DNA from: Deltaproteobacteria bacterium
Lineage (GTDB): Bacteria; Bacillota; Clostridia; Acetivibrionales; UBA4821
Assembly: GCA_050258375.1 (NCBI GenBank)
Contig: JBLMYQ010000068.1
Span: 27,913 to 91,912, forward strand
Length of the DNA stretch: 64,000 nucleotides
Direction of reading: 5' to 3'
In this document: in pieces, positions 2,997 through 57,658 of the stretch
How the letters are laid out: each line of letters starts with the position of its first letter
How positions within the stretch are numbered: position 1 is the stretch's first letter
Position numbers and translations under genes: made by a program
Notes under the pieces: generated by a model
Seen by the model: only the letters and a program-made list of their open reading frames with translations
What the model was told of the DNA's origin: nothing
Database searches by the model: none

Positions 2997-4364
2997 TCAA
3001 GTTCTTATATTTATTTCTGCCGGCAGTCTGCCTTCTTCCATACCTTGCAAACCTTCAGCCCCTTGACGCATAAATACAATATTCAAGGTCTGAAGGATTA
3101 TCTTAACATCGTATAATATCGAATAATTTCTAATATATAATAAATCATACCTGAGCTTATCCTCCGGCTCAGTTGTATATTTCCCTAAAACCTGGGCAAG
3201 CCCGGTGATTCCTGCCTTAACGTGTGTGCGGTATTCGTAGCCTGGTATTTCCTTCTTAAATTGCTCTACAAACACCGGTCTTTCGGGTCTTGGACCAACT
3301 ATACTCATTTCTCCAATAAGAACATTTATTAGCTGTGGTAATTCATCAATTCTGGTTTTTCTCAATATTTTACCAAACGGGGTTATCCTTTTATCATTTT
3401 CAGCTGAAAAAACTGGTCCTGTAACTTTCTCAGCATCATTCACCATTGACCTGAACTTGTATAATTTGAATGCTCTTCCCCCTCTTGTAATCCTTTCCTG
3501 AACATAGAAAACCGGACCTTTGGAGGTCAGCTTTATTATCAGAGCCGAAATCAACAAAACAGGAGATAAAACAATCAGTGCCGCAGCCGAAAATGCTACA
3601 TCAAAAACCCTCTTTATTATTTTTTGTACCGTAGAAAGCTTAAGCTGTTCTACTGCAAAAGCTGCTATATCAGCAAATTGCAACATTTGAGCTTTATAAA
3701 GCAATACTTCAGGCATACCCGGTATAATATATATGCCCTTTTCCTTATTCATACAGTATCTAATTATCTTATCCTTGATTTCATCAGGTACACTTGAACT
3801 AATAAAAACATCATCGCATATATCTATAAGCTCTAATACATTATTAATATCTGATACATAACAAATATGCTTAATATTAAGAAGCATATTTGAAGCCGGT
3901 GTTTTTATCTTATCTGCAATACTTTCAATATTATCACTTTCAGTACCGACAACTACTACCTGCCTTGTATCAAGTATATATTTCCTGTTCTCCCAAACAA
4001 AAATCCTCCAGGATATCAGAAAAACAACTTGCACAACAGGCGCAACAAGCAGTATACTTCTCGGGAATGAGAATCCCTGATTGATATAGGTTATTGCAAT
4101 TGTGGTTATACATAGAAGCATTACAGCAAGAATAATTGAGTATACAGTTTCATACAATGATTTTTTTAATGGCTTTAAAAGCCCATATAAATCAAAATAT
4201 AATATGGCGGCGATTGTAATAAACGGTATAATCTCTATATATGGACCCATATTGTACTTGGGAGGATTAAAATCAAACTTCATCATAAATGCAATATAGA
4301 ATCCCAAGTTTATTAGCAATATATCCACTAATACAACTACTACATTGAACACTTTACGTTTCAT
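2997..4364 (-). CDS. Polyprenyl-phosphate hexose-1-phosphate transferase (WbaP/WsaP-type priming 'bacterial sugar transferase')
   Basis: N-terminal TM helices plus a C-terminal sugar-transferase domain (KGPVFYVQERITRGG, FKLYKFRSM, DELPQLINVLIGEMSIVGPRPERP). I prefer the ATG at 4364 (MKRKVFNVV...; GAGG SD upstream) over the track's TTG at 4421. Confidence 0.85.
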   Translation of the reverse strand: MKRKVFNVVVVLVDILLINLGFYIAFMMKFDFNPPKYNMGPYIEIIPFITIAAILYFDLYGLLKPLKKSLYETVYSIILAVMLLCITTIAITYINQGFSFPRSILLVAPVVQVVFLISWRIFVWENRKYILDTRQVVVVGTESDNIESIADKIKTPASNMLLNIKHICYVSDINNVLELIDICDDVFISSSVPDEIKDKIIRYCMNKEKGIYIIPGMPEVLLYKAQMLQFADIAAFAVEQLKLSTVQKIIKRVFDVAFSAAALIVLSPVLLISALIIKLTSKGPVFYVQERITRGGRAFKLYKFRSMVNDAEKVTGPVFSAENDKRITPFGKILRKTRIDELPQLINVLIGEMSIVGPRPERPVFVEQFKKEIPGYEYRTHVKAGITGLAQVLGKYTTEPEDKLRYDLLYIRNYSILYDVKIILQTLNIVFMRQGAEGLQGMEEGRLPAEINIRT

Positions 4365-4473
4365 TATTATCAACCTCACAGACTGTTTACTCATATTAAA
4401 GCATAAAGCCGACTCCATCAATTATAGCCATTATATGAATATATGTAAATATAGATTATATGGAAACTCCAAC

Positions 4474-5313
4474 TTAATCCTTCGTAAGATATTCCTTTAA
4501 TGCCACATCCCAGTTTCTTAGCTTATATTTCATTCTCGCATTTCCTAATACCGAAAACCCGGGTCGTTTAGCAGGTCTGTTAAGCTTCATTGTATCAATA
4601 GGAATAACATTTGTTTTTATATTCTTAATCTCAAATATTTTACACGCAAGCTCATACCATGAACAATACCCAGAATTCGTAATATGATAAATTCCATACT
4701 CCTTAGTATTAAGCAAAGCTATTATTGCCATCGCCAGTTCAGATGCATAGGTAGGACATCCAATCTGATCATTAACCACCTCTATATTATCTTTTGTCTT
4801 TGAAAGCTCAAGCATGGTATGTACAAAGTTCTTGCCTTGACCGTACAGCCATGATGTTCTTACAATATAGAATTTTTTCAGAAGTGTTTTAACAATTTCC
4901 TCTCCGGCTAATTTGGATTTTCCATAAACATTCAATGGGTTAGGGGTATCAAATTCAAAGTACTCCTGCCCTTTGGTACCATCAAATACATAATCGGTAG
5001 AAATATGAACAAACGCACAATCCCATTTCAGGCACTCTCCTGCCAATAGCCCAACACCTTTTGCATTTATTTCATATGCTGCTTCCTCATTTGATTCACA
5101 GCCGTCAACATTAGTATATGCGGCACAATTTATAACAACATCCGGCTTAACATTCTCAAAGCACTCTTTTATTTGTTCTGAATTTGTTATATCAAGAGAT
5201 TTTTTATTAAACCCATAAATCTCAAAATTGCTTTTTATTCGTGCAAATTCCAATCCAGCTTTGACAAATTCCGTTCCAAGCTGCCCCTCTGCCCCCGTCA
5301 CTAAAATCCTCAT
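4474..5313 (-). CDS. rfbD: dTDP-4-dehydrorhamnose reductase
   Basis: 279 aa. MRILVTGAEGQLG Rossmann motif, STDYVFDG and YGKSK catalytic motif, RPxxS near the C-terminus. Confidence 0.9.
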   Translation of the reverse strand: MRILVTGAEGQLGTEFVKAGLEFARIKSNFEIYGFNKKSLDITNSEQIKECFENVKPDVVINCAAYTNVDGCESNEEAAYEINAKGVGLLAGECLKWDCAFVHISTDYVFDGTKGQEYFEFDTPNPLNVYGKSKLAGEEIVKTLLKKFYIVRTSWLYGQGKNFVHTMLELSKTKDNIEVVNDQIGCPTYASELAMAIIALLNTKEYGIYHITNSGYCSWYELACKIFEIKNIKTNVIPIDTMKLNRPAKRPGFSVLGNARMKYKLRNWDVALKEYLTKD

Positions 5314-5324
5314 ACAACACCCCT

Positions 5325-6209
5325 TTATCCTTTAGTTCCTACACTTCTCCCATCTCTTATTAAAACCTTTAATATTGCTGCCTGTTTTAAAAGCCATATT
5401 CCAAAATAAACAAAGAACTTTAAGATAGGATTAGTTTTTTTACTGTAATTTTTATTAAAAAATATTGCCATTGAATCATAAAAGGCTTTTGTAGCTTTCA
5501 TGCTCATATGCTTACTGCTTTGTCCTTTGAAGTGAGTTATTCTGGTATCCGGATAGTACATTATCTTCCAACCTTTTTGCTTTGCCCTGAAACAGAAATC
5601 TATATCCTCGGCATACATAAAATAATCTTCATCAAGACCTCCAATTTGCTCATAGACCTCTCTTCTGAAGGTCAAGAATGCACCTGAAACCGCATCCACT
5701 TCAGTTTCTTGATTTTCATCAATATACGAAAGATTGTATTTTGCCAATATTTTGCTTTTGGGGAATAATTTACCCAACCCAGACAGCTGAAAAAAAGCAA
5801 TTTTGGGTGTCGGAACACTCCTTCTGCAAGCTCTTTGTAAGGTGCCGTCAGGATTCTCCACTCTACACCCGGATACCCCTACATCAGAATGCTTATCCAT
5901 ATACTCAACCATTTTATCTAGTGTGGACTCAAAGACAATAGTATCAGGATTTAAAAGCAGCAAATATCTTCCTTTTGCCAGTTTCATTCCAATATTGTTG
6001 CCTTTTGAAAAGCCAGCGTTTTCTTTATTTTCATAGCCAATTACCTGGGGGAACTTTTCACTAAGCATTTCAATACAGCCATCTCCTGAGTTGTTGTCAA
6101 CAACAATAACCTCAAAGGAAATATTTTTTGTATTTTGGTATATTGATTTCACGCAAGCCTCAGTAAAATCTTTGGATTTAAAATTAACGATAATAATTGA
6201 AAGATCCAT
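5325..6209 (-). CDS. Glycosyltransferase family 2
   Basis: LSIIIVNFKS...VIVVDNNSGDG...LLLNPDT...EDIDFCFR motifs. Start moved to the ATG at 6209 (GGGAGGGA SD) rather than the TTG at 6221. Confidence 0.85.
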   Translation of the reverse strand: MDLSIIIVNFKSKDFTEACVKSIYQNTKNISFEVIVVDNNSGDGCIEMLSEKFPQVIGYENKENAGFSKGNNIGMKLAKGRYLLLLNPDTIVFESTLDKMVEYMDKHSDVGVSGCRVENPDGTLQRACRRSVPTPKIAFFQLSGLGKLFPKSKILAKYNLSYIDENQETEVDAVSGAFLTFRREVYEQIGGLDEDYFMYAEDIDFCFRAKQKGWKIMYYPDTRITHFKGQSSKHMSMKATKAFYDSMAIFFNKNYSKKTNPILKFFVYFGIWLLKQAAILKVLIRDGRSVGTKG

Positions 6210-6258
6210 TGTCCCTCCCAAAAGACTTATTTAGTGCACAATAAAGCTTTTATACAGT

Positions 6259-7329
6259 TCATCTATTTGAATACATTTTATTGTAATACTCTTTGTACTC
6301 TCCGTTTTTGATTTCTTCCCACCACTCCATATTATTCATATACCAATTTATTGTGCTTTCAATACCCTTTTCGAAACTCACTAAAGGCTTCCAGCCAATC
6401 TCTTTCATAGCTTTCTTAGGGTTCATGGCATATCTTTTATCATGCCCCGGTCTGTCCTTTATATATTTTATTAATTCTTCAGATTTGCCCAGATGCTGTA
6501 GTATTATTTTTACAATTTCTATATTCTTTCTCTCGTTATTACTCCCAAAATTATATACTTCTCCGGGTACTCCATTTTTTATGACAGCAATAAGACCCCT
6601 GCAGTGATCATCCACATGTATCCAATCACGAACATTCATTCCTTCTCCATAAACAGGAAGCGCTTTATCCTCAAGTGCATTCGAAATCATTAAGGGGATC
6701 AGCTTTTCCGGAAATTGATACGGTCCATAGTTATTTGAGCATCTGGTAATAATAACAGGCAATCCGTAAGTTCTAAAATATGCTTTCGCAAGCATATCGG
6801 CAGAAGCCTTACTCGCAGAATAAGGACTATTTGGCGCTAAAGGAGACTCTTCTGAAAAAAGCCCTTCTTCTCCTAATTCTCCATACACTTCATCAGTGGA
6901 AATCTGTATAAACTTGGCTGTTGGCTGTTGGCTATTAGCTGTTAGCATCCCGTGCTTCTTTGCAGCTTCAAGGAGGGTGAATGTACCCATAATGTTTGTA
7001 TCAAGGAATTCTTCGGGATTGTCAATACTGCGGTCAACGTGGGATTCTGCTGCAAAATTGATAACAATACCCGGATTATATTTTTTAAATATATCATCTA
7101 CAAGAACATTGTCTCGAATATCACCTTTTATAAAGGTGTAATCAGGATTGTCTTCAACATCCTTAAGGTTGTTTAAATTCCCTGCATATGTAAGAGCATC
7201 AAGATTAATTACTTTGTACTGCAGCTCTTCATTTAAAATCATTCTTATAAAGTTGCTGCCAATAAACCCTGCGCCACCGGTCACTAAGATGGCTATTGGC
7301 TGTTGGCTGTTAGCTGTTGTTTTTTTCAT
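6259..7329 (-). CDS. rfbB: dTDP-glucose 4,6-dehydratase carrying two in-frame TANSQQP(I/T)A insertions
   Basis: 356 aa. VTGGAGFIGSNF, STDEVYG, YSASKASADM catalytic motif. Strong SD GAGGGGGG 7 nt upstream of the ATG at 7329. Confidence 0.92.
   Translation of the reverse strand: MKKTTANSQQPIAILVTGGAGFIGSNFIRMILNEELQYKVINLDALTYAGNLNNLKDVEDNPDYTFIKGDIRDNVLVDDIFKKYNPGIVINFAAESHVDRSIDNPEEFLDTNIMGTFTLLEAAKKHGMLTANSQQPTAKFIQISTDEVYGELGEEGLFSEESPLAPNSPYSASKASADMLAKAYFRTYGLPVIITRCSNNYGPYQFPEKLIPLMISNALEDKALPVYGEGMNVRDWIHVDDHCRGLIAVIKNGVPGEVYNFGSNNERKNIEIVKIILQHLGKSEELIKYIKDRPGHDKRYAMNPKKAMKEIGWKPLVSFEKGIESTINWYMNNMEWWEEIKNGEYKEYYNKMYSNR
6916..6943. repeat. 28-nt block of four degenerate heptamers (GGCTGTT GGCTGTT GGCTATT AGCTGTT) inside rfbB
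   Basis: Read directly and cross-checked against the plus-strand track ORF 6896..7141 (..NLAVGCWLLAVS..). Encodes TANSQQPTA on the minus strand. Confidence 0.9.
7291..7318. repeat. Second copy of the 28-nt heptamer block (GGCTATT GGCTGTT GGCTGTT AGCTGTT) at the 5' end of rfbB
   Basis: 26/28 identical to 6916-6943 and exactly 375 nt (125 codons) away. Cross-checked against track ORF 7148..7336 (..MAIGCWLLAVV..). Encodes TANSQQPIA. Confidence 0.9.
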
Positions 7330-7342
7330 TTATTAACCCCCC

Positions 7343-7798
7343 TCATCTATTCCGGGTAGTCCAATCGAATCCAATAGAAGGGTCATTCCAATCAATCCTA
7401 TATTCGTCAGGATTTTTAGCATCATAAGATTCAGTAGTAAAATAAACAATTGTCGCAGGTGCATTCCCCAGCACTCTGTATCCATGTGCTACACCTACCG
7501 GAATATAAACGAGTATCGGATTATTTTCGCCCATATAGAGCACGTTGGTTTCACCTTTAGTTGGCGAATCTTCTCGAATATCATGCAAAACTACCTGTGC
7601 ATTTCCCGAAGGGAAAAACCATAAATCATCCTGCTTTTTGTGATAATGAAAAGCTTTTATTACTCCCGGATATGTTAATGAAGCTGAAGCTTGTCCAAAT
7701 TTTTTTAAGAGGTTGTCATCATCCCTAAGGATTTCCATGAAAAAACCTCTATCATCCGTATGCTTAACAAGCTTCTTTACTGCTACATCTTTAATCAT
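7343..7798 (-). CDS. rfbC: dTDP-4-dehydrorhamnose 3,5-epimerase (short cupin-type RmlC)
   Basis: 151 aa. DDRGFF...HYHKKQDDLWF...GVAHGY cupin motifs; sits between rfbA and rfbB. GGAGGG SD. Confidence 0.8.
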   Translation of the reverse strand: MIKDVAVKKLVKHTDDRGFFMEILRDDDNLLKKFGQASASLTYPGVIKAFHYHKKQDDLWFFPSGNAQVVLHDIREDSPTKGETNVLYMGENNPILVYIPVGVAHGYRVLGNAPATIVYFTTESYDAKNPDEYRIDWNDPSIGFDWTTRNR

Positions 7799-7827
7799 GA
7801 CTTTCCCTCCACTTTTTCAATTCTGAA

Positions 7828-8553
7828 CTAGCTGAAGCTTATCTGTATATCAGTTGCCAGTTCATTTGCCCTTACAAGTGATTCAAATGTGCCTGCATCA
7901 GTCCACCAACCGTCAAGAATGTCATACGTCATTGTTCCTCTTCTTATGTATTCATTGTTAACGTCAGTAATCTCCAATTCACCCCTACCAGAGGGTTTAA
8001 GCGTTTTTATTATATCAAAGACATCAGAATCATACATGTATATCCCTGTTACCACATGATTGCTTTTAGGATTTTTAGGCTTTTCTTCAACTGAAATAAT
8101 CTTATCTCCATCCAATTCCACTACGCCGAATCTTTCAGGATTGGTAACCGATTTAATAAGAATCTTTGCGCCTTTCCCCTGTTCTTCAAAGCTCTCTACA
8201 AACTCGGTAATATCTTTTCTGAAAATATTATCACCTAAAATAACAATACATTTATCATCTCCAACAAAATTTTCTGCCAGTCCAAGCGCTTGAGCAATAC
8301 CTCCTGCTTCATCCTGAACCTTATATGTAAAATTCATGCCAAATTCTCTTCCGCTCCCAAGTAGATTGACAATATCCCCCATATGCTCAAGCCCTGTAAC
8401 AATAAGTATTTCATTTATTCCCGCTTCCTTAAGCTTACTTATTGGATGATATATCATTGGATATTTTCCTACCGGAAGTAAATGCTTATTCGTTACTTTT
8501 GTCAATGGATATATCCTTGAGCCCGTTCCTCCTGCCAGTATTATTCCTTTCAT
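7828..8553 (-). CDS. rfbA: Glucose-1-phosphate thymidylyltransferase (short form)
   Basis: MKGIILAGGTGSRIYPLTKVTNKHLLPV... nucleotidyltransferase signature. Start set at the ATG at 8553 (AAAGGGA SD). The track's 42-codon N-terminal extension to 8679 lacks homology logic and would overlap the upstream gene. Confidence 0.88.
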   Translation of the reverse strand: MKGIILAGGTGSRIYPLTKVTNKHLLPVGKYPMIYHPISKLKEAGINEILIVTGLEHMGDIVNLLGSGREFGMNFTYKVQDEAGGIAQALGLAENFVGDDKCIVILGDNIFRKDITEFVESFEEQGKGAKILIKSVTNPERFGVVELDGDKIISVEEKPKNPKSNHVVTGIYMYDSDVFDIIKTLKPSGRGELEITDVNNEYIRRGTMTYDILDGWWTDAGTFESLVRANELATDIQISFS

Positions 8554-8599
8554 ATGAATATCCCTTTCATCTTTCTGCATATACGAACTTTTATACAAT

Positions 8600-8608
8600 A
8601 TTATAGCA
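8600..8608 (-). promoter_or_regulatory. Candidate extended -10 promoter element (TGCTATAAT) upstream of rfbA
   Basis: Minus-strand TGCTATAAT lies in the 122-nt gap, about 47 nt upstream of the rfbA ATG. No good -35, which is acceptable for TGn promoters. AT-rich background makes chance matches common. Confidence 0.35.
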
Positions 8609-8675
8609 TAATATGCCAAAGAAAATACTTTTGACAAAGAACTTTTTCCTGAAAGAATAAAAGCTCCGTGAATCT

Positions 8676-9620
8676 TCACAAAGCTTTATGAAGAGAAAAT
8701 ATAAATCCTAAATACCCAAAATTTCTTAATACTCCATTTTTTGTAAATCTATACTTGATAATTGTTCTTATTCTTGCAAGTCGAGACTGCTCTAAAAGGG
8801 TTGAGAATCTCTGTGCCGTTTTTCGCTCGCTCTCTTCCATTAAGCTGCCATATACCTCCTCTAAGGCTTTTGACTGCTTAAAAATATTGTAAAACAAATT
8901 TGTCATTTTATTTTTATTTTCAAATTTCTTTATAAAATATTTTAGTGAATATTTCTTAGCTCCTATTTCATTCCTGCCATGCTGTCTATACAAAATCGTA
9001 GGCTGCTTTACATAGCCTATTTTTCCTAAAGCTGAAGCTACAAGCGCCAGCCACCAGTCATGTATGATTGCCTCTTTTGAAAAGGGCATAACTAATTCCT
9101 TTAGCTTTTTATTTATCAAAACCGTGCAGCCGGTTACATTATTCTCTACCAGCATATAATTCAGACTCTGTCGCTCAGGATTCAGCTTTTGATACCTCCA
9201 TATTGAATCTGAAGAAACTTTGAGATTTTGATCTGCAACCTTCAAATCCGTATGAACAAGAATGGGCTTATCAAAGTACGCTTTCTCCATCTCAAGCATT
9301 TTTGCCAATGTAATTTCAATCTTATTATCAAGCCAGACATCATCCTGATCACAAAACATCATATACTCCGCATCAGAAAGCTCTAAAAGTCTTGCAAAGC
9401 TGAAGCATGCGCCCAAATGCTTGTCCTGGTCATTGATAAAAACAATTTTTTCGGGATACCTTTTTGAATATTCTTGAATTATCTCTATGGTAGCATCTAA
9501 AGACCCATCATCCCTAATGAGAAGGCGCCAATCCTGAAAGGTTTGCCCCAGAAGTGAATCCAGCTGCTCTCTAATAAATTTTTCACCATTGTAGGTTGAA
9601 AGAAGTATATCAATTTTCAT
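8676..9620 (-). CDS. Glycosyltransferase family 2 (rhamnosyltransferase-like)
   Basis: 314 aa. MKIDILLSTYNGEKFIREQLDSLLGQTF...LIRDDGS...FCDQDDVW is the typical GT2 pattern found next to rml genes. Confidence 0.8.
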   Translation of the reverse strand: MKIDILLSTYNGEKFIREQLDSLLGQTFQDWRLLIRDDGSLDATIEIIQEYSKRYPEKIVFINDQDKHLGACFSFARLLELSDAEYMMFCDQDDVWLDNKIEITLAKMLEMEKAYFDKPILVHTDLKVADQNLKVSSDSIWRYQKLNPERQSLNYMLVENNVTGCTVLINKKLKELVMPFSKEAIIHDWWLALVASALGKIGYVKQPTILYRQHGRNEIGAKKYSLKYFIKKFENKNKMTNLFYNIFKQSKALEEVYGSLMEESERKTAQRFSTLLEQSRLARIRTIIKYRFTKNGVLRNFGYLGFIFSLHKAL

Positions 9621-11937: not shown

Positions 11938-12471
11938 TTAATAATCATTTAATATTTGCGTTAAATTGCTGATAATCCTTGAGGCTCTAGAGCTTTCAAT
12001 ATGACTTGACCCTGACAAAAGAATATTTTCTTTTACCCCTGCATTAATACCGGCTTGAATATCGCTTTCTCTATCTCCAATAGAAATGGACTTTAATAAA
12101 TCAATATCAAAATCTTTTTGCGCCTCAAGAAACATGCCTGCTTTTGGTTTTCTGCATTCACAGCTTGCTTTATATCTTCCCAATCCAAACTCAGGATGAT
12201 GTGGGCAATAATAGACTTTACTAATATGGATACCACGGCTTTCAAACTGCTTTAGCATCCAGCTGCTAAGCTTGTGAAAATCTTCTTCGGTATAATAGCC
12301 TCTGCCTATTCCAGCCTGATTGGTAATTATTACCAGCAGATATTCTCGCTGCTGATAGTACTTAAGCACTTTAAAAATACCTTCAGCAAACTCAAAGTCC
12401 TCAATCTTGTGAACATAATTTTTTTCTTTATTTATTACTCCGTCCCTATCCAGGAAAACTGCTTTATTCAT
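11938..12471 (-). CDS. gmhB: D-glycero-D-manno-heptose 1,7-bisphosphate phosphatase (HAD-IIIA)
   Basis: 177 aa. [19 protein letters not shown], Zn-site C..H..C.CRKP, GDRESD. Confidence 0.85.
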
Positions 12472-13160: not shown

Positions 13161-13161
13161 T

Positions 13162-14773: not shown

Positions 14774-14788
14774 TAAAATCACCCATTT

Positions 14789-18286: not shown

Positions 18287-18318
18287 AAAAATTAAAACCC
18301 CCGGAGCAAATCCAAGGG
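18287..18318 (-). terminator. Strand-specific rho-independent terminator after asnB-like gene 1
   Basis: Minus-strand RNA CCCUUGGA-UUUGC-UCCGGGGG (8 bp including 2 G.U) followed by UUUUAAUUUUU, 20 nt after the stop at 18338. On the plus strand the wobble positions become C.A mismatches. Confidence 0.55.
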
Positions 18319-42986: not shown

Positions 42987-43019
42987 AATAAAAATCCTCC
43001 ATTATCGAAATATTGTATG

Positions 43020-43766: not shown

Positions 43767-43812
43767 ACAAACGCTCTTACCTTTCGAGACATCTAATTTA
43801 TTCTTATTAGAA

Positions 43813-44673: not shown

Positions 44674-44692
44674 TTCTGCCTCCAAAAATAAT

Positions 44693-45445: not shown

Positions 45446-45447
45446 GA

Positions 45448-48286: not shown

Positions 48287-48290
48287 TTCA

Positions 48291-50174: not shown

Positions 50175-50187
50175 TAATATGCTCCTT

Positions 50188-51402
50188 CTATAACATCAAT
50201 TTCAATTGATTTATAACATATTCTTGTTCAGTATCTGTCATATTTGCATAAAGTGGCAAAGTAATTGTTAACCTATCTGCTTTATACGAATTTATAAATT
50301 GATGATCTTTAAAAGCATATTTCTTTTTATAGTAATTCAGCATATGAACTGCATGGGTTCCCTGTCTTGTTGAAATTCCTTTTTCGTCTAACTTGTGCAT
50401 CAATTCATTCCTAAATTTTGAAGCTTCTTCAAAGTCTTTAATATTTAGTTTATCAGCATTTAATAAGCAAACATACGATTGATAACCATGTTCAAATTCG
50501 TTTGGAACAAATGGAGGAGTTAAATAATCTATATTAGTTAACTCCTTATCATATATTTCAGCTCTTTTTTTACGTTCATTAATAATCCAACTTGCTTTTT
50601 TCATTTGTTCATAACCAATTGCCCCTTGAATGTCCGTCATTCTATAGTTATAGCCTAAATAATTATACTCTGGAAGAAGATACCCCGAATGATTATGCCT
50701 TTGTAAATCGCTTATCTCTGCGCCATGATTTCTTAGCACATTAATGTTATTTGCATATTCTCCTGAATCAGTAGTAATCATTCCACCCTCGCCAGTTGTA
50801 ATCGCTTTTCTAGGATGCAAGCTATAACAAGCCATATTACCAAAGCTACCAATATGCTTTTCTTTTATCCTTCCTCCCAAGGCACAAGCTGCATCTTCAA
50901 TAACAGTAAGATTATAACGTTTGGCTATATTGTTTATCTCTATAATGTCAGCAGGCAAACCAAAAAGATGCACAGGCATTATTGCCTTTAATCTATTTCC
51001 CGTTAATTTGTTTTTAAAGAAACCTAAATTATCATCAAATGCATATTCATTATTTATTAAGCTTTCTACATTATTAATAGATATATTATATGTACGAATA
51101 TCAATATCGCAAAATACAGGCGTTGCACCAGTATACTCAATTGCATTAGCTGTAGCAATAAACGTAAAAGAGGGTACGATAACATCGTCCCCATTAGTAA
51201 TCCCTTCAATGGCTAAAGCAATATGCAAAGCTGTAGTACATGAAGTTACAGCTTTTGAATAATTGACACCTGTAAAATCCGAAAAAGCTTTTTCGAAATT
51301 TTCGACCATCAAGCCCTGAACAAGCCAGCCTGATTGCAATACTATTGAAACGGCTTGTATTTCCTGCTCATCAAAAATAGGTTTTGTTATAGGTATTTTC
51401 AT
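50188..51402 (-). CDS. DegT/DnrJ/EryC1/StrS-family PLP-dependent sugar aminotransferase
   Basis: 404 aa. ...YSLHPRKAITTGEGGM (PLP-Lys motif) and SCTTALHIALA. Confidence 0.85.
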   Translation of the reverse strand: MKIPITKPIFDEQEIQAVSIVLQSGWLVQGLMVENFEKAFSDFTGVNYSKAVTSCTTALHIALAIEGITNGDDVIVPSFTFIATANAIEYTGATPVFCDIDIRTYNISINNVESLINNEYAFDDNLGFFKNKLTGNRLKAIMPVHLFGLPADIIEINNIAKRYNLTVIEDAACALGGRIKEKHIGSFGNMACYSLHPRKAITTGEGGMITTDSGEYANNINVLRNHGAEISDLQRHNHSGYLLPEYNYLGYNYRMTDIQGAIGYEQMKKASWIINERKKRAEIYDKELTNIDYLTPPFVPNEFEHGYQSYVCLLNADKLNIKDFEEASKFRNELMHKLDEKGISTRQGTHAVHMLNYYKKKYAFKDHQFINSYKADRLTITLPLYANMTDTEQEYVINQLKLML

Positions 51403-52374
51403 CTATTTATACCTTTCTATATGTTTTTTTCTCCATTCAATTAACGTTTCAAGTCCCTCTTTTAATTCAATTTTAGCCTTGAAGCCTAAATCCTTTTCAG
51501 AATTCACAGTACTTCCTATTCTGTTCGTTACAAAGGTTTGCCCAGCAGGTTCATATTGTATTTTTAAATCAGAGCCTGTTATTTCTAAAACCATTTCACA
51601 CAATTCTTTTATTGTTGTTTTTTTGCCCATTCCAACATTATAGAACTTATCTGTAGCATCTGATTTCAACGCACAAACATTTGCTCTTCCAACATCTGAA
51701 ACATATATAAAGTCATAAGCCTGTGAACCATCCCCATAAACAATTGGAGGTAAGCCCTGATCGATTCTATCAAGAATCTTCATTATAACTGCAACATAAG
51801 TGCCTTTATAATCCTGCCTAGCTCCATAAACATTCATATACCTTAATCCTGTATAATTAAGCTTATATCTTTCATAAAAGGCACGGCACATATGCTCTCC
51901 AGCAATTTTTGTTGCTCCATAAAATGTTCTATTATTATATGGATGATCTTCTGTCATTGGAATTTCAACTGCATCACCATAAACTGAAGCAGAGGAAGAA
52001 TATACAAGCTTTTTGATATTATTATTTGCACAAGCCTCAAGTACATTAAATGTTCCTCTTATATTAACATCAAAAGCAGCTCTTGGGTATTCATAACATT
52101 GAAGTAACCAAAGTGCTGCCAAGTGAAAAACATAATCTTTTCCTTTAATTGCTGAATTAAGTATATCAGTTTGTGTTATATCTCCGCCAACCTCATAAAT
52201 TTTCACTCTAGGATCTTTTAATGCAGCTTCAAGATTATTTTTGGTTCCTCTACAAAAATTATCATAAATAACAATCTCTTCAACGTCTTCTTTAATAAGC
52301 TCTTCAACTACATGTGAACCAATTAATCCTGCACCACCTATTACTAAAACCTTACCACCTTTGATATCCGGCAT
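51403..52374 (-). CDS. NAD-dependent epimerase/dehydratase (extended SDR)
   Basis: 323 aa. VIGGAGLIGSHV, catalytic YGATK. Confidence 0.85.
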   Translation of the reverse strand: MPDIKGGKVLVIGGAGLIGSHVVEELIKEDVEEIVIYDNFCRGTKNNLEAALKDPRVKIYEVGGDITQTDILNSAIKGKDYVFHLAALWLLQCYEYPRAAFDVNIRGTFNVLEACANNNIKKLVYSSSASVYGDAVEIPMTEDHPYNNRTFYGATKIAGEHMCRAFYERYKLNYTGLRYMNVYGARQDYKGTYVAVIMKILDRIDQGLPPIVYGDGSQAYDFIYVSDVGRANVCALKSDATDKFYNVGMGKKTTIKELCEMVLEITGSDLKIQYEPAGQTFVTNRIGSTVNSEKDLGFKAKIELKEGLETLIEWRKKHIERYK

Positions 52375-52401: not shown

Positions 52402-53712
52402 TTATAATACTTCAATATTATTTCTTGCTTCAACCTTCTTCATTGCATTCTTAGTATCAAAAACCATTTTCGAATTCTTCTGTACAAATTCATAATCTAC
52501 AGTTGAATGTGCAGTTGTAACTACTACCAAGTCCATACTCCTTAGCATTTCCTTGCTAAACTCGCAGCCTTCGTACCTCTTCCCTTTATACTTAAACTTC
52601 GTAACATACGGATCATAATATGATACAATGCTTCCTTCTTTTGAAAAATTATCTATCAGCTTTAGTGCCGGGCTTTCTCTATAATCATCTATATCCTGCT
52701 TATATGCAATACCTAATATTAAAATCTTTGAATCCTTTAAAGGCTTGCCAAATCTGTTCAATATTCTTGATGACCTTTCAACTACATACTGCGGCATATA
52801 ATTATTAATTTCTCCTGATATCTCAATCAACCTTGTATGATAATCATACTCTCTTGCCTTCCATGTAAGATAATATGGATCCAGAGGAATACAATGTCCT
52901 CCAATACCGGGTCCTGGATAAAAAGCCTGAAATCCGTAAGGCTTGGTCTTTGCAGCCTCAATTACTTCCCAAACATTTATTCCCATCTTATCACATATTA
53001 TAGCCATTTCATTTGCCAAACCAATATTGATATTTCTATAGGTATTCTCGAGTATCTTTTCCATTTCAGCAACTTCAGGGCTGGAAACCTGAAAAATATC
53101 ACTTTCTAATATACTTCCATAAAGTGCAGCTGCCAGCTCGGTACTATCTTTTCCGATTCCTCCAACCACCTTCGGTGTATTTTTTGTTTTAAAATAAGCA
53201 TTACCGGGGTCAACTCTTTCAGGGGAAAAAGCAAGATAAAAATCCTTTTCACATTGAAGACCCGAAATCTTTTCAATTATAGGCTTCACAAGCTCCCTTG
53301 TCGTGCCCGGGTAAGTAGTGCTTTCAAGTACTACCAGCATACCTGCATGCATGTGCTTTGCAATTTCTTCGGCTGAAGCTTTTACATAGCTAATATCAGG
53401 CTGTTGGTAAGCATCAAGAGGGGTTGGCACACAAATTGCGACACAGTCAACCTCTTTAATTAATGAATAATCAACTGTAGCTTTTAACAGTCCATCCTTG
53501 ATAACCATTTGAAGGTCTTTATCAACTATATCACCAATATAATTATGACCTTCGTTAACCATGTTCACTCTTTCTGCCTGCACATCAAATCCAATAACCT
53601 TATAGCCAGCCTTTGCCTTTTCTACTGCAAGTGGAAGACCAACATAACCCAGTCCTACAACTCCTACAACAGCTGTTTTCTCATTAATCTTCTTTAATAG
53701 AGTCTGTTTCAT
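52402..53712 (-). CDS. Nucleotide-sugar 6-dehydrogenase (WbpA-like UDP-N-acetyl-D-glucosamine dehydrogenase)
   Basis: VVGLGYVGLPLA, catalytic GPGIGGHCIPLDP. Start set at the ATG at 53712 (GGAGGA SD). First gene of the WbpA/B/D/E-like set in biochemical order. Confidence 0.8.
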   Translation of the reverse strand: MKQTLLKKINEKTAVVGVVGLGYVGLPLAVEKAKAGYKVIGFDVQAERVNMVNEGHNYIGDIVDKDLQMVIKDGLLKATVDYSLIKEVDCVAICVPTPLDAYQQPDISYVKASAEEIAKHMHAGMLVVLESTTYPGTTRELVKPIIEKISGLQCEKDFYLAFSPERVDPGNAYFKTKNTPKVVGGIGKDSTELAAALYGSILESDIFQVSSPEVAEMEKILENTYRNINIGLANEMAIICDKMGINVWEVIEAAKTKPYGFQAFYPGPGIGGHCIPLDPYYLTWKAREYDYHTRLIEISGEINNYMPQYVVERSSRILNRFGKPLKDSKILILGIAYKQDIDDYRESPALKLIDNFSKEGSIVSYYDPYVTKFKYKGKRYEGCEFSKEMLRSMDLVVVTTAHSTVDYEFVQKNSKMVFDTKNAMKKVEARNNIEVL

Positions 53713-53727
53713 AAAATCCTCCAAACA

Positions 53728-54801
53728 TTATATGTCAAACGGTATAGTTACTATTTTCCCTTCTCTGGATGATTTATATACGGCAAGTATAAGCTCAAGT
53801 GCTTTTCTTCCGCTTCTGCCATCAGTTATAGGCTTTGCATTGTTCTTTAAAACATCTATAACATTTTCATAATAAGCAGCGTGCCCCAACCCATAAATAT
53901 TAGGCGGCTCATAATTTGAACTTTTTATTAAATTATCATCTTCATTTTCCTGCTCGAAATTCCATTCTTCTATATGATTAAGTGCAACCCCGCCAATCCT
54001 TGCAGTCCCTTTTTCACCTATTACAGTTATACTTCCTTCAAGATTTTTGGGGTATGTAAGCATGGTAACATTTATATTTCCTACAGCACCATTTCTAAAT
54101 TTCATTACTGCAGAGCCGGTATCTTCAGCTTCAATCTTTCTGGCTAAGGTTGTTGTAATTGCAGAAACGCTTTCAACCGGACCACCAATCCATTCCAATA
54201 AATCTATATAGTGACTAGCCTGATTCATGAAGGCTCCGCCATCAAACTCCCATGTTCCTCTCCAGCTTGCATCATCATAATATGCTTGTGGTCTTGTCCA
54301 CAATACATTGGCAAGAATCATGTATATCCTACCGAATCTATTATTATCAACTGCTTTCTTTAATAATTGCATTGTTGAATTCAACCTATTTTGTTTCACT
54401 ACAAATAATTTTACTTTTTCCTGATCGCATACCTTTATCAACTCATCAGCAAGCTTAAGATTAGTTGCCATAGGCTTTTCAGATAATATATTAACCCCTT
54501 TTCTGGCTGCTTTTATTCCATGTTCGGGATGAAGACCACTTGGTGTACAAATTGAAACAATATCAAGCTTTTCGTTCTCAAGCATATTGTCTATATCAGT
54601 ATAAATTTTGGGTTTTTCTGCTTTGATACCTTTTTGAGCCAGATGTTGAATATATTCATTTGCCTTTTGTTCAGCTTTTTCTTTCATAATATCACAGACA
54701 GCAGTTATTTCCGCGTCGTTATTCAATTCAGCAAGAGCTTCTACATGCTTATATGAAATTCTTCCACAGCCAATTATTCCAAATCTGATTTTTCTAGACA
54801 T
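53728..54801 (-). CDS. Gfo/Idh/MocA-family oxidoreductase (WbpB-like 3-dehydrogenase)
   Basis: 357 aa. RFGIIGCGRIS N-terminus, ...LSEKPMA... Confidence 0.8.
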   Translation of the reverse strand: MSRKIRFGIIGCGRISYKHVEALAELNNDAEITAVCDIMKEKAEQKANEYIQHLAQKGIKAEKPKIYTDIDNMLENEKLDIVSICTPSGLHPEHGIKAARKGVNILSEKPMATNLKLADELIKVCDQEKVKLFVVKQNRLNSTMQLLKKAVDNNRFGRIYMILANVLWTRPQAYYDDASWRGTWEFDGGAFMNQASHYIDLLEWIGGPVESVSAITTTLARKIEAEDTGSAVMKFRNGAVGNINVTMLTYPKNLEGSITVIGEKGTARIGGVALNHIEEWNFEQENEDDNLIKSSNYEPPNIYGLGHAAYYENVIDVLKNNAKPITDGRSGRKALELILAVYKSSREGKIVTIPFDI

Positions 54802-54862
54802 TTTATTCTCCTTAATCTGCTAACTCCCTACCTATTCTCCCCTCACAATTGAAGGTGGGAAG

Positions 54863-55441
54863 TTAATCTGCGCATTTTACAAAATTATCTTCTAATACAT
54901 ATTTTTCATCACATGCATAGCAAGTATATTCCTGTGTGCTTGCAAAATCAAGTTTTTCTCCGCATTTGCATACCCAGCCTTTTACTCTTGCCGGATTCCC
55001 AACAACAAGCGCAAAATCAGGAATATTTTTTGTGACTACGGCTCCAGCCCCTATAAATGCATATTTTCCTATATCATGGCCGCATACGATAGTTGCATTT
55101 GCTCCAACCGAAGCTCCTTTTTTTACAATAGTTTTTTTATACTCATTTCTTCTATTAACATGACTTCTTGGGTTTATAACATTGGTAAAAACACATGAAG
55201 GTCCAAGAAATACATCATCTTCACAAATAACACCTGTATAAACAGAAACATTATTTTGTATCTTAACATTATTACCAAGAATAACCTCTGAAGATATTAC
55301 AACATTTTGCCCTATATTGCAATTTTCTCCTATTTTTGAATTACTCATTACATGAGAAAAATGCCATATTTTTGTTCCTTTTCCGATTTGACACGGCTCA
55401 TCAACATAGCTTGACTCGTGCACGAAGTATTCTTTCTCCAT
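54863..55441 (-). CDS. Left-handed beta-helix N-acetyltransferase (WbpD-like)
   Basis: 192 aa. Hexapeptide repeats ([36 protein letters not shown]). Confidence 0.8.
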
Positions 55442-55513
55442 ACTATCATCATCCCTCTTGTTTAATATAAATACCCTACCGAACTTATGATATATATACT
55501 CTTGATTTTAATT

Positions 55514-56629
55514 TTACATTTTACACTTGTTTGAAAATTCCCTAACCTTCTCTATTACATAATCCTGCTCTTCTATGGTCATCTCCGGCGATATCGGAAG
55601 CGATATAACCTTATTACATGCCTCTTCTGCATTAGGCATATCTCCATTTTTATAGCCAAGCTCTTTGAAGGCTTCCTGCAAATGCAACGGCACCGGATAA
55701 TAAACGCTGGTCCCTATCTCATTATCCTTCAAGAATTTAGCCAATTCATCCCTTTTTTCGACTTCAATTGTATATTGGTGATAAACATGATACTGCTTAT
55801 AATCCTTAGCTTCTTCCGGAGTCTTTACTATGTCAGCAAGGTACTTATTGTATCTATATGCATGATTTCTTCTTTTTTGGTTCCAATCAGACAAATACTT
55901 ACTCTTAACATTTAATATGGCTGCCTGGATTTCATCCAATCTGCTGTTGTACCCTATAATACTATGATGATATTTCACATTTGAACCATGCTGCCTTAAA
56001 AGTCTGATATTTTCATTCAGACTTTCATCATCTGTTACAATCATTCCTCCATCGCCATATCCACCAAGATTTTTTGTGGGAAAGAATGAAAAGCACCCTG
56101 CATCTCCAAAGCTTGAAACCTTCTTGCCTTCAAACTCGGAACCGATTGCCTGACATGAATCCTCAACTACATGCAAATTATATTTTTTTGCTATATCCAT
56201 TATTCTCTTCATATTGCATGCCTGTCCGAAAAGGTGAACGGGAATAATAGCTTTTGTGTTTTTCGTGATTTTTTCTTCTATTCTATCTGCATCTATTAGA
56301 TAAGTGCCTCTTTCTATATCAACGAATACAGGAACAGCTCCGAGCTTTGCAATAACCTCTGCAGAAGCAAAAAATGTAAAAGGAGTTGTTATTACTTCAT
56401 CTCCCGCACCGATATTCAAGGCTTTAAGGGTAAGCTCCAATGCATCAGTTCCATTAGCAACCCCTATTCCAAACTTGACATTACACAGCTTTGAAATGTT
56501 TTCTTCTATTTTTTTGACCTGTGGTCCTAAGATAAACTGGCATTTCTCCAGAACCTCAATTATACTTTCATTGATTTCTTCCTTCATATTTATATACTGA
56601 CTTTTCAAATCCAATATCGGTACTCTCAT
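55514..56629 (-). CDS. DegT-family aminotransferase (WbpE-like)
   Basis: 371 aa. ...FSFFPTKNLGGYGDGGM (PLP-Lys motif), NGTDALELTLKAL. Confidence 0.85.
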   Translation of the reverse strand: MRVPILDLKSQYINMKEEINESIIEVLEKCQFILGPQVKKIEENISKLCNVKFGIGVANGTDALELTLKALNIGAGDEVITTPFTFFASAEVIAKLGAVPVFVDIERGTYLIDADRIEEKITKNTKAIIPVHLFGQACNMKRIMDIAKKYNLHVVEDSCQAIGSEFEGKKVSSFGDAGCFSFFPTKNLGGYGDGGMIVTDDESLNENIRLLRQHGSNVKYHHSIIGYNSRLDEIQAAILNVKSKYLSDWNQKRRNHAYRYNKYLADIVKTPEEAKDYKQYHVYHQYTIEVEKRDELAKFLKDNEIGTSVYYPVPLHLQEAFKELGYKNGDMPNAEEACNKVISLPISPEMTIEEQDYVIEKVREFSNKCKM

Positions 56630-56677
56630 ATTTTTCCTCCATTATACAAACACTTTCTATATTTTAAAACAATATTC

Positions 56678-57658
56678 TTACCTTTTCAACTTTTCAAAAT
56701 AATACTTTATATAAAGAAGCTTTTTCCCTAGAAGTCCATACAATAAAAATTTCATTATATTTTTAAAGCTTAATACTCCAATCCTGCATATATTATTTCC
56801 CAATATCATTCTTATTCTTTTATATAGTTTTTCCTCCAAAATCAAATTATTCATTGAATTGCTGAATTTTAGAATCTTAATATATTTTTCTTTTTTATTT
56901 TTGTCATTTTCATTTTTAATTATGAAATTCTCAAATTCATTATAATAATTGAGTGTTCTTGCCGTTAACCTTAATTGTTTTTCGACCAAAAGCTTTATAT
57001 TTTTATTATTATATGAAGCATTATCATTATTTGCGTGCTGTCTGTATTTAATAAGCTTTTGACTCGTGGGTACTATTTTGCCGTAATAACAAGCCACAAA
57101 TGCTATCCACCAATCCTCAAACAACAGCTTTTCTGGAATCGGAAAAATTTTTTCTTTTATTCTTCCATCAAATAAGATTGTACCCCCTGAAACATAATTT
57201 TGCTGAAGCAGGCTTTCAATATCAACCTTTTTATAAGGCTTAATTTCTGTTTGAGCCCAGAACGAATCTGCTAACTTATTCAGACCCGCATCAACAATCT
57301 CCATGTCTCCGAATATTAAAGCAGCATCATTTTTTTTGATTAAATCTACTTGTGCTTGAATTCTGTAAGGAAAACAAATATCATCTGCAGCATGTATTGC
57401 TACATAATTTCCTGCTGCTTTTTCCATTCCCTTATTTATTGCGTTTACTTTACCCATGTGAGGCAAATCAATAAGAATTATATTATTGTAAGCTTTTACA
57501 AGCTTATCAATTTCATTTTTTGAATCATCACCAGAGCCATCATTTACAACAATAATTTCAATATTACTGTACGTCTGGTCAATGCAGCTTTGAATTGACT
57601 CAGCAATATATTTCCCGGCATTATAAACAGGTATGACTATGCTAACCAAAGCTTCCAT
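56678..57658 (-). CDS. Glycosyltransferase family 2 (first gene of the locus)
   Basis: VSIVIPVYNAGKYI...VNDGSGDDS...HAADDI motifs. Start set at the ATG at 57658 (AGGTGA SD 5 nt upstream) rather than the GTG at 57667, which lies inside the SD. Confidence 0.85.
   Translation of the reverse strand: MEALVSIVIPVYNAGKYIAESIQSCIDQTYSNIEIIVVNDGSGDDSKNEIDKLVKAYNNIILIDLPHMGKVNAINKGMEKAAGNYVAIHAADDICFPYRIQAQVDLIKKNDAALIFGDMEIVDAGLNKLADSFWAQTEIKPYKKVDIESLLQQNYVSGGTILFDGRIKEKIFPIPEKLLFEDWWIAFVACYYGKIVPTSQKLIKYRQHANNDNASYNNKNIKLLVEKQLRLTARTLNYYNEFENFIIKNENDKNKKEKYIKILKFSNSMNNLILEEKLYKRIRMILGNNICRIGVLSFKNIMKFLLYGLLGKKLLYIKYYFEKLKR

What the first reader, a model, noticed from the sequence alone, without database searches (positions are those of the whole stretch)
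2997..57658. One-directional ~55-kb glycan super-locus: two transcription units that each lack an essential function encoded only in the other
Sequence: about 45 consecutive minus-strand genes, with tiny gaps or overlapping stop/start codons, all encode sugar-nucleotide synthesis, glycosyl transfer, tailoring or export. The only convincing internal intrinsic terminator is at 18287-18318. That gives an upstream ~39-kb unit (57658 to 18338) and a downstream ~15-kb unit (18166 to 2997, terminator at 2949-2978). The only polyprenyl-phosphate priming transferase (2997-4364) is in the downstream unit. The only exporter (wzm plus two wzt) is in the upstream unit. No Wzx/Wzy-like gene is evident.

Inference: the locus makes either one composite glycan (primer, Rha/heptose domain, diamino-uronamide domain, cap) or two polymers sharing primer and exporter. 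The adjacent SLH protein suggests an S-layer glycan or a secondary cell-wall polymer in a Gram-positive spore former.
Basis: partly seen in the sequence, partly recalled or inferred. Interest (0 to 1): 0.6.

Follow-up and report, generated by a model that had tools for sequence, protein, structure and literature searches.

The report
Two fused cell-surface glycan gene modules
This 55-kb run of same-strand genes joins two sugar-polymer assembly modules that occur separately in other bacteria; it is a large but recognisable surface-glycan locus, and only half of the claimed mutual dependence holds up.

Summary
Forty-seven consecutive minus-strand genes (57658-2997) are almost all glycan-related. 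Terminator-like hairpins lie at 18319-18297 and 2978-2957. The window has one phosphoglycosyl transferase, one Wzm and two Wzt, and no Wzx, Wzy or WecA-type gene.

The downstream unit is a known module type: rmlABCD, GDP-heptose genes, a kinase/coiled-coil/GT2/GT1 terminator-polymerase, a GT-C enzyme and the priming transferase. In 9 of 10 related loci this module has its own wzm-wzt just upstream of the big transferase. That pair is missing here, so reliance on an exporter encoded elsewhere is real.

The upstream unit (diacetamido-uronic acid genes, four AsnB amidotransferases, wztA-wztB-wzm) is also a separate, conserved module. In four other contigs it carries the same tandem Wzt pair and no priming transferase within 10 kb. 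Both Wzt are therefore native to it, and its missing primer is normal rather than evidence of dependence.

No ligase (Wzy_C or LCP) is in the window either. Two separate polymers are more likely than one composite.

It is a new member of a known kind, of modest interest. The conserved two-Wzt transporter, with an ATA start on wztA here, is the most unusual feature.

The parts
57668..58140 (-). 473-nt non-coding leader/promoter region between the sipL terminator (58121-58096) and the first glycan gene
   Evidence: Folds with z = -2.4. No Rfam family and no credible ORF.
56678..57658 (-). U01, GT2 glycosyltransferase, first gene of the upstream unit
   Evidence: Pfam PF00535. ATG at 57658 with an AGGTGA ribosome-binding site.
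52402..56629 (-). U02-U05: DegT aminotransferase, hexapeptide N-acetyltransferase, GFO/MocA 3-dehydrogenase-like enzyme and UDP-HexNAc 6-dehydrogenase (a WbpE/D/B/A-like set)
   Evidence: TIGR03026 is above its cut-off. The other three match at family level only.
41726..52374 (-). U06-U16: SDR epimerase, DegT, AsnB1 amidotransferase, DegT, FemAB/GNAT, formyltransferase, WbmS-like deacetylase, methyltransferase, deacetylase-like unknown, GNAT and WbqC (tailoring and cap-sugar genes)
   Evidence: Collinear with L017.
41489..41725 (-). 237-nt AT-rich gap with a promoter-like site (TTGCAA-18-TATAAT, 41624-41595) and no hairpin
40331..41488 (-). wztA: ABC ATPase plus a distinct C-terminal Wzt_C-like domain. 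It has an ATA in place of the start Met.
   Evidence: The sequence is identical in an independent Logan contig.
39129..40352 (-). wztB: ABC ATPase plus a second, unrelated C-terminal Wzt_C-like domain
   Evidence: Its best PDB matches are Aquifex Wzt 6an5/8dku.
38338..39147 (-). wzm: ABC-2 permease
23415..38347 (-). U20-U30: GT1, unknown 228 aa, AsnB2, 853-aa GT1, unknown 434 aa, AsnB3, two SDR epimerases, unknown 278 aa (N-terminal TM helix), WecB-type 2-epimerase and GT4
   Evidence: AsnB2 / GT of about 800 aa / AsnB3 is collinear in L017 and L018.
20270..23356 (-). U31-U33: DAO+BFD flavoprotein, Pyr_redox_2 and DUF1667 (a glycerol-3-phosphate or 2-hydroxyglutarate oxidoreductase-like trio). 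Their role in the glycan is unknown.
   Evidence: GC is 0.38, against about 0.30 in the neighbours.
18338..20218 (-). U34, AsnB4 amidotransferase, last gene of the upstream unit
18287..18319 (-). intrinsic-terminator-like hairpin plus U-tract
14789..18166 (-). D01, 1125 aa: kinase-fold terminator (aa 1-232), long helix (251-391), GT2 (about 495-712) and GT1/GT4 (about 897-1111)
11938..14782 (-). D02-D05: HddA, GmhA, HddC and GmhB (GDP-D-glycero-alpha-D-manno-heptose pathway)
9719..11878 (-). D06: DUF8201 polytopic membrane protein with a GT-C fold and a C-terminal beta-sandwich
4474..9620 (-). D07-D12: GT2, RmlA, RmlC, RmlB, GT2 (C-terminal hydrophobic segment) and RmlD
   Evidence: The D07 homologue lies between rmlA and wzm in L020, L021 and L024.
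4421..4449 (-). near-consensus sigma-70-like promoter (TTTACA-17-TATAAT) in the rmlD-PGT gap
2997..4364 (-). D13: polyprenyl-phosphate hexose-1-phosphate transferase (WbaP/WsaP type)
   Evidence: PF02397 and TIGR03025, 397 bits, above the cut-off. It has several N-terminal hydrophobic (TM-like) segments.
2949..2978 (-). intrinsic-terminator-like hairpin plus U-tract ending the locus
   Evidence: z = -3.25 for the surrounding 101 nt

Best explanation
The region is a mosaic of two ABC-transporter-dependent glycan assembly modules that occur separately in other bacteria. It most likely makes two different lipid-linked polymers rather than one.

Module D (18166-2997):
- The WbaP/WsaP-type transferase primes undecaprenyl phosphate, and GT2 enzymes add a rhamnose adaptor.
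- The 1125-aa enzyme polymerises a Rha/heptose repeat with its GT2 and GT1 modules.
- Its N-terminal kinase, held at a distance by a coiled coil, caps the chain, probably with phosphate.
- After export, the GT-C enzyme D06 probably decorates the chain.
- D has lost the wzm-wzt pair that normally sits directly upstream of its polymerase, so it must use a transporter encoded elsewhere. The nearest candidate is the upstream Wzm/WztA/WztB.

Module U (57658-18338):
- It makes UDP-2,3-diacetamido-uronic acids, amidates them with four AsnB paralogues, builds a tailored cap sugar and polymerises the chain.
- It exports through its own conserved wztA-wztB-wzm transporter.
- Like its relatives it carries no priming transferase. 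It is probably primed either by an unlinked WecA/TagO-type enzyme or by D13.

Shown here: gene content, folds, synteny and the separate occurrence of the two modules.
Inferred: sugar identities, the phosphate cap, which transporter serves D, which primer serves U, and the final acceptor.
For: - Gene families.
- In L003, L004/5, L009, L010, L011, L013, L020, L021 and L024, wzm-wzt sits just upstream of the D01 homologue and the heptose genes follow it. No U-type genes accompany them.
- U-type collinear clusters with the tandem wztA-wztB-wzm occur in JGI 3300075153, L017, L018 and L019. None has D genes or a Bac_transf gene within 10 kb either side.
- WztB's C-terminal domain aligns with its U-type counterparts in L017 and L019 (340 of 407 aligned; residues 65-407). 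D-type Wzt proteins match only its ATPase domain.
- The D01 N-terminus has invariant K33, D149, N154 and D167. It has an APH/choline-kinase fold and a 140-residue helix. This matches the terminator-ruler-polymerase format of K. pneumoniae O7 ORF6 and O12 WbbB (PMC11231755) and of WsaE (PMC2943079).
- D06 has a GT-C fold. Its homologue in L004 sits next to a GT2 and GtrA.
- GC3 is 0.19-0.23 in the U core, against 0.27-0.35 in D and 0.31-0.35 in the flanks.
- A near-consensus promoter lies in front of D13.
Against: - Only 64 kb of the genome is visible. A second transporter or priming enzyme elsewhere cannot be excluded.
- Wzt proteins that carry a CBM are usually specific for their own cap (PMC11231755). 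Export of the D polymer by the U transporter is therefore not a given.
- One relative (L022) also lacks an upstream wzm-wzt.
- wztA has no canonical start codon.
- Most NCBIfam hits are below the curated cut-offs, so sugar identities are family-level inferences.
- No GtrB/GtrA partner for D06 is present in the window.
- The terminator and promoters are consensus matches only.
Confidence: 0.6

Rival explanations
1. One glycan is primed by D13, extended with the Rha/heptose domain by module D, then extended with the diamino-uronamide domain and cap by module U. It is exported once through Wzm/WztA/WztB.
For: - There is a single primer and a single exporter in 64 kb.
- All genes are co-directional with tiny gaps.
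- Two-domain O-antigens with an adaptor and a cap are known in ABC-dependent systems (own knowledge).
Against: - D01 keeps an apparently active terminator kinase and a coiled-coil ruler. A phosphate-capped chain is not a substrate for further Leloir extension.
- The two modules occur apart in all 13 comparison loci.
- Codon composition differs between the modules.
- A terminator lies between them.
Confidence: 0.12
2. The two modules are merely neighbours in a glycan island. D uses another Wzm/Wzt encoded outside the window, and U is primed by an unlinked WecA/TagO-type enzyme. Neither depends on the other.
For: - U-type clusters elsewhere have no nearby priming transferase.
- ABC-dependent O-antigen clusters are classically primed by an unlinked WecA (PMC2943079).
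- CBM specificity argues against cross-export (PMC11231755).
- Further glycan genes continue beyond the window end at 62994-64000.
- The ligase must be elsewhere in any case.
Against: - In 9 of 10 relatives the D-type transporter is immediately adjacent to the polymerase. An unlinked copy would be unusual.
- The locus is tightly co-oriented.
Confidence: 0.25
3. Part of the locus is decaying. Module D is a non-functional remnant that lost its exporter, and/or wztA is a pseudogene that lost its start codon.
For: - The cognate wzm-wzt is missing.
- ATA stands where 17 homologues have Met.
Against: - All 13 D genes and wztA have intact full-length reading frames, and catalytic and invariant residues are retained.
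- A strong Shine-Dalgarno sequence lies 8 nt before the ATA.
- The same sequence appears in independent assemblies.
Confidence: 0.08

Closest known systems
S-layer glycosylation (slg) gene clusters of Geobacillus stearothermophilus NRS 2004/3a, Paenibacillus alvei and Aneurinibacillus thermoaerophilus (review PMC2943079)
   Same: - One-directional, tightly packed and low in GC.
- rmlABCD are present.
- A WbaP-type primer (WsaP) is combined with a Wzm/Wzt exporter.
- There is a large multi-module terminator-polymerase comparable to WsaE.
- Asparagine-synthase homologues are present (WsfA).
- GDP-heptose genes are present, as in A. thermoaerophilus DSM 10155 (own knowledge).
- An SLH-bearing protein gene lies nearby.
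   Different: - wzm-wzt is not adjacent to the polymerase.
- There is no Wzy_C-type O-oligosaccharyltransferase (WsaB/WsfB) in the window.
- The terminator is a kinase, without the methyltransferase module.
- The locus is two to three times larger, because a second module is fused to it.
Klebsiella pneumoniae O7 ORF6, O12 WbbB and E. coli O9a WbdD terminator-ruler systems (PMC11231755, PMC3482155)
   Same: - Terminator domain, coiled-coil ruler and two polymerising GT modules are combined in one protein.
- Export is by a Wzt whose C-terminal CBM reads the cap.
   Different: - The terminator here is kinase-only. Relatives L004, L009, L011 and L013 carry a methyltransferase as well.
- The host is Gram-positive-like.
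- The cognate CBM-Wzt is absent from its usual place.
Bordetella wbm O-antigen locus (PMC2615507) and the Pseudomonas aeruginosa WbpA/B/E/D/I pathway (the Wbp pathway from own knowledge)
   Same: - It has a 2,3-diacetamido-2,3-dideoxy-uronic acid gene set.
- It has several glutamine-dependent amidotransferases, as with WbmC, WbmI and WbmZ.
- It has a WbmS-like deacetylase, a formyltransferase and wzm/wzt.
   Different: - It has four AsnB paralogues.
- It has two tandem Wzt genes.
- The host is Firmicute-like.
- The sugar configuration is unknown.
Three-component extracytoplasmic glycosylation: GtrA/GtrB/GtrC and the GT136 systems (PMC11127046)
   Same: - D06 is a GT-C enzyme with a C-terminal CBM-like domain.
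- Its L004 homologue sits beside a GT2 and a GtrA.
   Different: - No GtrB-type synthase or flippase is recognisable in this window.
- The family is DUF8201, which is uncharacterised.

Membership tests
ABC-transporter-dependent (Wzm/Wzt) polysaccharide pathway | ABC-2 permease Wzm plus Wzt ATPase | tested here: met
   PF01061 and PF00005. The top NCBIfam hit is the galactan/O-antigen Wzt model. PDB 6an5/8dku match at E = 3e-54.
ABC-transporter-dependent (Wzm/Wzt) polysaccharide pathway | Wzt C-terminal carbohydrate-binding module that reads a chain cap | tested here: inconclusive
   Both C-terminal domains hit PF14524 only below the gathering score (E = 3e-5 and 4e-4). No binding data exist.
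ABC-transporter-dependent (Wzm/Wzt) polysaccharide pathway | No Wzx flippase or Wzy polymerase; a cytoplasmic processive polymerase with a terminator | tested here: met
   No such Pfam or NCBIfam hit in any ORF. The D01 architecture is described.
slg (S-layer glycosylation) cluster | wzm-wzt immediately upstream of the repeat-unit glycosyltransferases | tested here: not met
   About 20 kb and 15 genes separate wzm from D01. The feature is met in 9 of 10 relatives.
slg (S-layer glycosylation) cluster | Wzy_C-type O-oligosaccharyl:protein transferase (WsaB/WsfB) | tested here: not met
   There is no PF04932 hit in the window. L003 has one upstream of its module.
slg (S-layer glycosylation) cluster | WbaP/WsaP-type initiating transferase and rmlABCD | tested here: met
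slg (S-layer glycosylation) cluster | The glycan is attached to an S-layer protein | not testable with these tools
   An SLH protein gene lies at 60903-62924, but nothing shows it to be glycosylated.
WbdD / O7-ORF6 type chain terminators | Kinase-fold domain with catalytic Lys, Asp, Asn and Asp residues | tested here: met
   K33, D149, N154 and D167 are invariant in 43 sequences. Foldseek matches APH(3'), LicA and Rio kinases at probability 1.0.
WbdD / O7-ORF6 type chain terminators | Methyltransferase module paired with the kinase | tested here: not met
   There is no methyltransferase hit in D01. One is present in L004 and in many homologues.
WbdD / O7-ORF6 type chain terminators | Coiled-coil ruler | tested here: met
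   Predicted continuous helix 251-391. SMC/Rad50-like hits at 235-389. The oligomeric state was not tested.
WbpA/B/E/D diacetamido-uronic acid pathway | 6-dehydrogenase, 3-dehydrogenase, 3-aminotransferase and 3-N-acetyltransferase, adjacent to each other | tested here: inconclusive
   All four families are adjacent at 52402-56629. Only the dehydrogenase passes a curated cut-off, and that is a subfamily model.
Gtr-type three-component glycosylation | GT-C transferase | tested here: met
   The model has pLDDT 88. Its top matches are EmbA/B/C, ArnT, ALG3 and AglB.
Gtr-type three-component glycosylation | GtrB-like polyprenyl-phosphate sugar synthase and GtrA-like flippase in the locus | tested here: not met
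   D07 and D11 are not similar to the L004 partner GT2. There is no PF04138 hit.

The most novel reading that the evidence does not exclude
The conserved tandem wztA-wztB-wzm encodes a Wzm transporter with two different ATPase subunits carrying two different cap-binding domains. This would be a heteromeric form of what is otherwise regarded as a homodimeric O-antigen exporter. In this genome it would let one channel export two differently capped polymers, which would explain how module D could lose its own wzm-wzt. The ATA start on wztA would then tune subunit ratios.
Probability: 0.2. Interest if true: 0.65.

Novelty: new member of a known kind. Interest (0 to 1): 0.33.

Why it matters
The locus shows how surface-glycan loci are assembled from portable modules, and that a module can persist after losing its dedicated exporter.

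If the shared-exporter reading were proven, it would bear on how strictly the Wzt cap-binding domains gate export. That question matters for glycoengineering.

Three by-products are usable leads for glycobiology annotation. DUF8201 has a GT-C fold. D01 is a terminator-polymerase with a kinase but no methyltransferase. The two-Wzt transporter module is conserved across several contigs.

Otherwise this is an ordinary, if unusually large, polysaccharide locus.

Tried and rejected
- Wzy or O-antigen-ligase identity for the 719-aa membrane protein: rejected. The fold is GT-C, not Wzy_C.
- A truncated pseudogene at the window end (62994-63923): rejected. The frame simply runs off the window.
- wztA as a stand-alone CBM protein (the ORF caller's 298-aa product): rejected. 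The ABC domain continues upstream in frame.
- The second Wzt as a recruit for the downstream unit: rejected. The tandem pair is conserved without module D.
- D07 or D11 as the GtrB-like partner of D06: no support.
- Rfam search of the whole window and of the 473-nt leader: nothing at gathering threshold, and only chance-level hits otherwise.
- Sequence searches of U23, U24 and U30 against PDB: uninformative.
- Attempts to reach the rest of the 96-kb source contig through exact-protein look-ups returned only short Logan contigs or nothing. Genome-wide uniqueness of the primer and exporter could therefore not be tested.
- Literature searches for tandem Wzt genes found no description of this arrangement.

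Full report
**Observation**

The window contains 53 ORFs of 100 aa or more with family support, all on the minus strand. The few plus-strand ORFs are embedded antisense in these genes.

Forty-seven consecutive genes run from 57658 to 2997. Gaps range from -56 to +103 nt, with two exceptions: 237 nt (41489-41725) and 171 nt (18167-18337).

The consensus scan finds its best internal terminator-like site at 18319-18297, a 9-bp stem with 5 G-C pairs followed by UUUAAUUUUU. Comparable sites lie at 2978-2957 and, after sipL, at 58121-58096. Folding confirms these hairpins and shows none in the 237-nt gap.

Pfam and NCBIfam scans identify one Bac_transf/TIGR03025 priming transferase, one ABC-2 permease and two Wzt-like ATPases. 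No Wzx, Wzy, Wzy_C, LCP or MraY/WecA family member is present. The ATG starts it gave at 57658 and 4364 are better supported than the longer ORF-caller starts.

**Corrections to the observation**

- wztA is mis-called by ORF logic as a 298-aa protein. Its ABC domain continues upstream in frame to a stop codon at 41505-41503, with no ATG, GTG or TTG in between.
- Seventeen full-length homologues start with Met exactly where the window has ATA (41488-41486), 8 nt after GGAAGAGG. An independent Logan assembly has the same bases.
- Three genes (23356-20270) form a flavoprotein/DUF1667 trio resembling glycerol-3-phosphate or 2-hydroxyglutarate oxidoreductases. They are not obviously glycan enzymes.
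- The 719-aa polytopic protein at 9719-11878 (DUF8201) gave a confident model (pLDDT 88). Its best structural matches are the GT-C enzymes EmbA/B/C, ArnT, ALG3, AglB and Pmt4.
- Promoter-like sites lie in the 237-nt gap before wztA, and at 11 of 12 consensus positions at 4449-4421 directly before the priming transferase. Two transcription units is therefore a minimum.

**The downstream unit (D)**

Its content is:
- a 1125-aa multi-domain enzyme;
- HddA, GmhA, HddC and GmhB;
- the GT-C protein;
- GT2, RmlA, RmlC, RmlB, GT2 and RmlD;
- the priming transferase.

The big enzyme's first 232 residues belong to a family with invariant Lys33, Asp149, Asn154 and Asp167, often fused to a methyltransferase. 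The model is an aminoglycoside/choline-kinase fold followed by a 140-residue helix. GT2 and GT1 modules follow.

This terminator-ruler-polymerase format is described for K. pneumoniae O7 ORF6, WbbB and WbdD (PMC11231755, PMC3482155) and for Geobacillus WsaE (PMC2943079). Here the methyltransferase is missing, so the cap is probably a phosphate. That is an inference.

**Comparison of the downstream unit**

Homologues of the big enzyme share 49-58% identity over about 790 residues. They were found in metagenomic contigs and in genomes of Desulfoscipio, two Paenibacillus species and a Clostridiales MAG.

In nine of ten loci with enough upstream sequence, a wzm-wzt pair lies just upstream of the big enzyme and the heptose genes follow it. 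The exception, L022, starts after housekeeping genes. None of these loci carries the upstream-unit genes.

The published slg rule says the same: wzm and wzt lie immediately upstream of the repeat-unit transferases (PMC2943079). The window breaks this rule. Lack of an exporter in D is thus a derived and meaningful feature.

**The upstream unit (U)**

It encodes:
- a WbpE/D/B/A-like set;
- three more DegT or SDR enzymes;
- four AsnB-type amidotransferases;
- FemAB/GNAT, formyltransferase, WbmS-like deacetylase, methyltransferase and WbqC;
- several GT1/GT4 enzymes;
- wztA-wztB-wzm.

This parallels the Bordetella wbm locus, which makes a diacetamido-uronic acid/uronamide polymer, has three amidotransferases and uses wzm/wzt (PMC2615507).

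WztA belongs to a tight family with 38-71% identity over its full length. In all four other contexts examined, wztA is followed by a 404-411-aa WztB-like gene and then wzm. In two of them this is followed by AsnB, a GT of about 800 aa, and AsnB, collinear with the window.

WztA and WztB share 35% identity in the ATPase domain only. Each has a different weak Wzt_C-like C-terminal domain. WztB's C-terminal domain aligns with its counterparts in L017 and L019. Wzt proteins of D-type loci match only its ATPase domain.

None of the four U-type contexts has a Bac_transf gene within 10 kb on either side.

**What this means for the interpretation**

The two units are separately occurring modules joined here. 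A codon-composition difference is consistent with that: GC3 is about 0.2 in the U core and about 0.3 in D and the flanks.

The claim that D depends on an exporter encoded outside itself is supported. The U transporter is the nearest candidate. However, CBM-bearing Wzt proteins are normally cap-specific (PMC11231755), and both Wzt here are native to U.

The claim that U depends on D's primer is not supported by comparison. This module type normally has no linked primer, as with WecA-primed O-antigen clusters (PMC2943079). The independent promoter-like site before the primer gene is compatible with shared use but does not show it.

A ligase or oligosaccharyltransferase is also absent, so the locus is not a closed system.

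The composite-glycan alternative is disfavoured because D01 keeps its own terminator. Whether the product is an S-layer glycan, a secondary cell-wall polymer or both cannot be decided. SpoIID, SipL and an SLH protein support a spore-forming Firmicute, even though the source MAG is labelled 'Deltaproteobacteria bacterium'.

**Limits**

The rest of the genome could not be reached. Genome-wide uniqueness of the primer and exporter is therefore untested. Sugar identities rest on family-level matches, mostly below curated cut-offs. Promoters and terminators are pattern matches whose totals are near the shuffle expectation.

**Verdict**

This is a large new member of a known kind of locus. Overall interest is modest. 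The conserved two-Wzt transporter, which I could not find described in the searchable literature, is the feature most worth following up.

Noticed in passing
window 41486-41488 (wztA start): ATA stands where all 17 aligned homologues have the initiator Met. A strong Shine-Dalgarno sequence lies 8 nt upstream, and an independent Logan assembly has the same bases. This is either a rare ATA start or a recent start-codon loss.
   Followed up: partly
window 38338-41488; L017 10001-13151; L018 10001-13102; L019 10001-13205; JGI 3300075153 contig: The tandem wztA-wztB-wzm, two different ATPases with different C-terminal domains and overlapping genes, is conserved in 4 of 4 other contexts. It persists down to 38% identity. 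This suggests a transporter with two different ATPase subunits. I found no description of it in the searchable literature.
   Followed up: partly
window 9719-11878: DUF8201 (PF26626) is predicted with high confidence to be a GT-C glycosyltransferase with a C-terminal CBM-like beta-sandwich. Its homologues all lie in glycan clusters, one of them next to a GT2 and GtrA.
   Followed up: yes
window 20270-23356: A DAO+BFD flavoprotein, a Pyr_redox_2 protein and a DUF1667 protein sit inside the glycan operon. Their GC (0.38) is like the flanks rather than the neighbouring genes (about 0.30). Their role is unexplained.
   Followed up: no
window 57668-58140: A 473-nt non-coding leader precedes the first glycan gene. 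It is relatively GC-rich, folds better than shuffled sequence (z = -2.4) and has no Rfam match. It could be a regulatory or antitermination leader for the long operon.
   Followed up: partly
window 4421-4449: The best sigma-70-like match in the first 20 kb (TTTACA-17-TATAAT) lies in the 52-nt gap before the priming transferase. This implies the gene may have its own promoter.
   Followed up: partly
whole window; source record: One window protein is identical to an NCBI MAG protein (locus tag ACM3KR_09810) labelled 'Deltaproteobacteria bacterium'. Yet the window carries SpoIID, SipL and SLH genes. The closest relatives found for the big glycosyltransferase and its neighbouring genes are Clostridiales, Desulfoscipio and Paenibacillus. 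The taxonomic label looks wrong.
   Followed up: partly
window 30563-31867; L018 8958-9974 and 17508-18602; L019 8708-9916 and 15809-16990: An unknown 434-aa protein, with only a weak POGLUT1/GT90-like hit, recurs, often twice, beside the two-Wzt transporter in other loci. It may be a conserved partner enzyme.
   Followed up: no
window 62994-64000: A UDP-ManNAc-dehydrogenase-like gene runs off the window end, upstream of the SLH gene. Glycan genes therefore continue beyond the window.
   Followed up: partly
window 23415-52374 versus the rest: Third-position GC is 0.19-0.23 in the core of the upstream unit, 0.27-0.35 in the downstream unit and 0.31-0.35 in the flanking housekeeping genes. This is consistent with separate acquisition.
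   Followed up: partly
L022 1-11815: A homologue of the big terminator-polymerase lies directly after enolase, an Omp85-family gene and other housekeeping genes, in what looks like a Gram-negative contig. No wzm-wzt lies upstream.
   Followed up: partly
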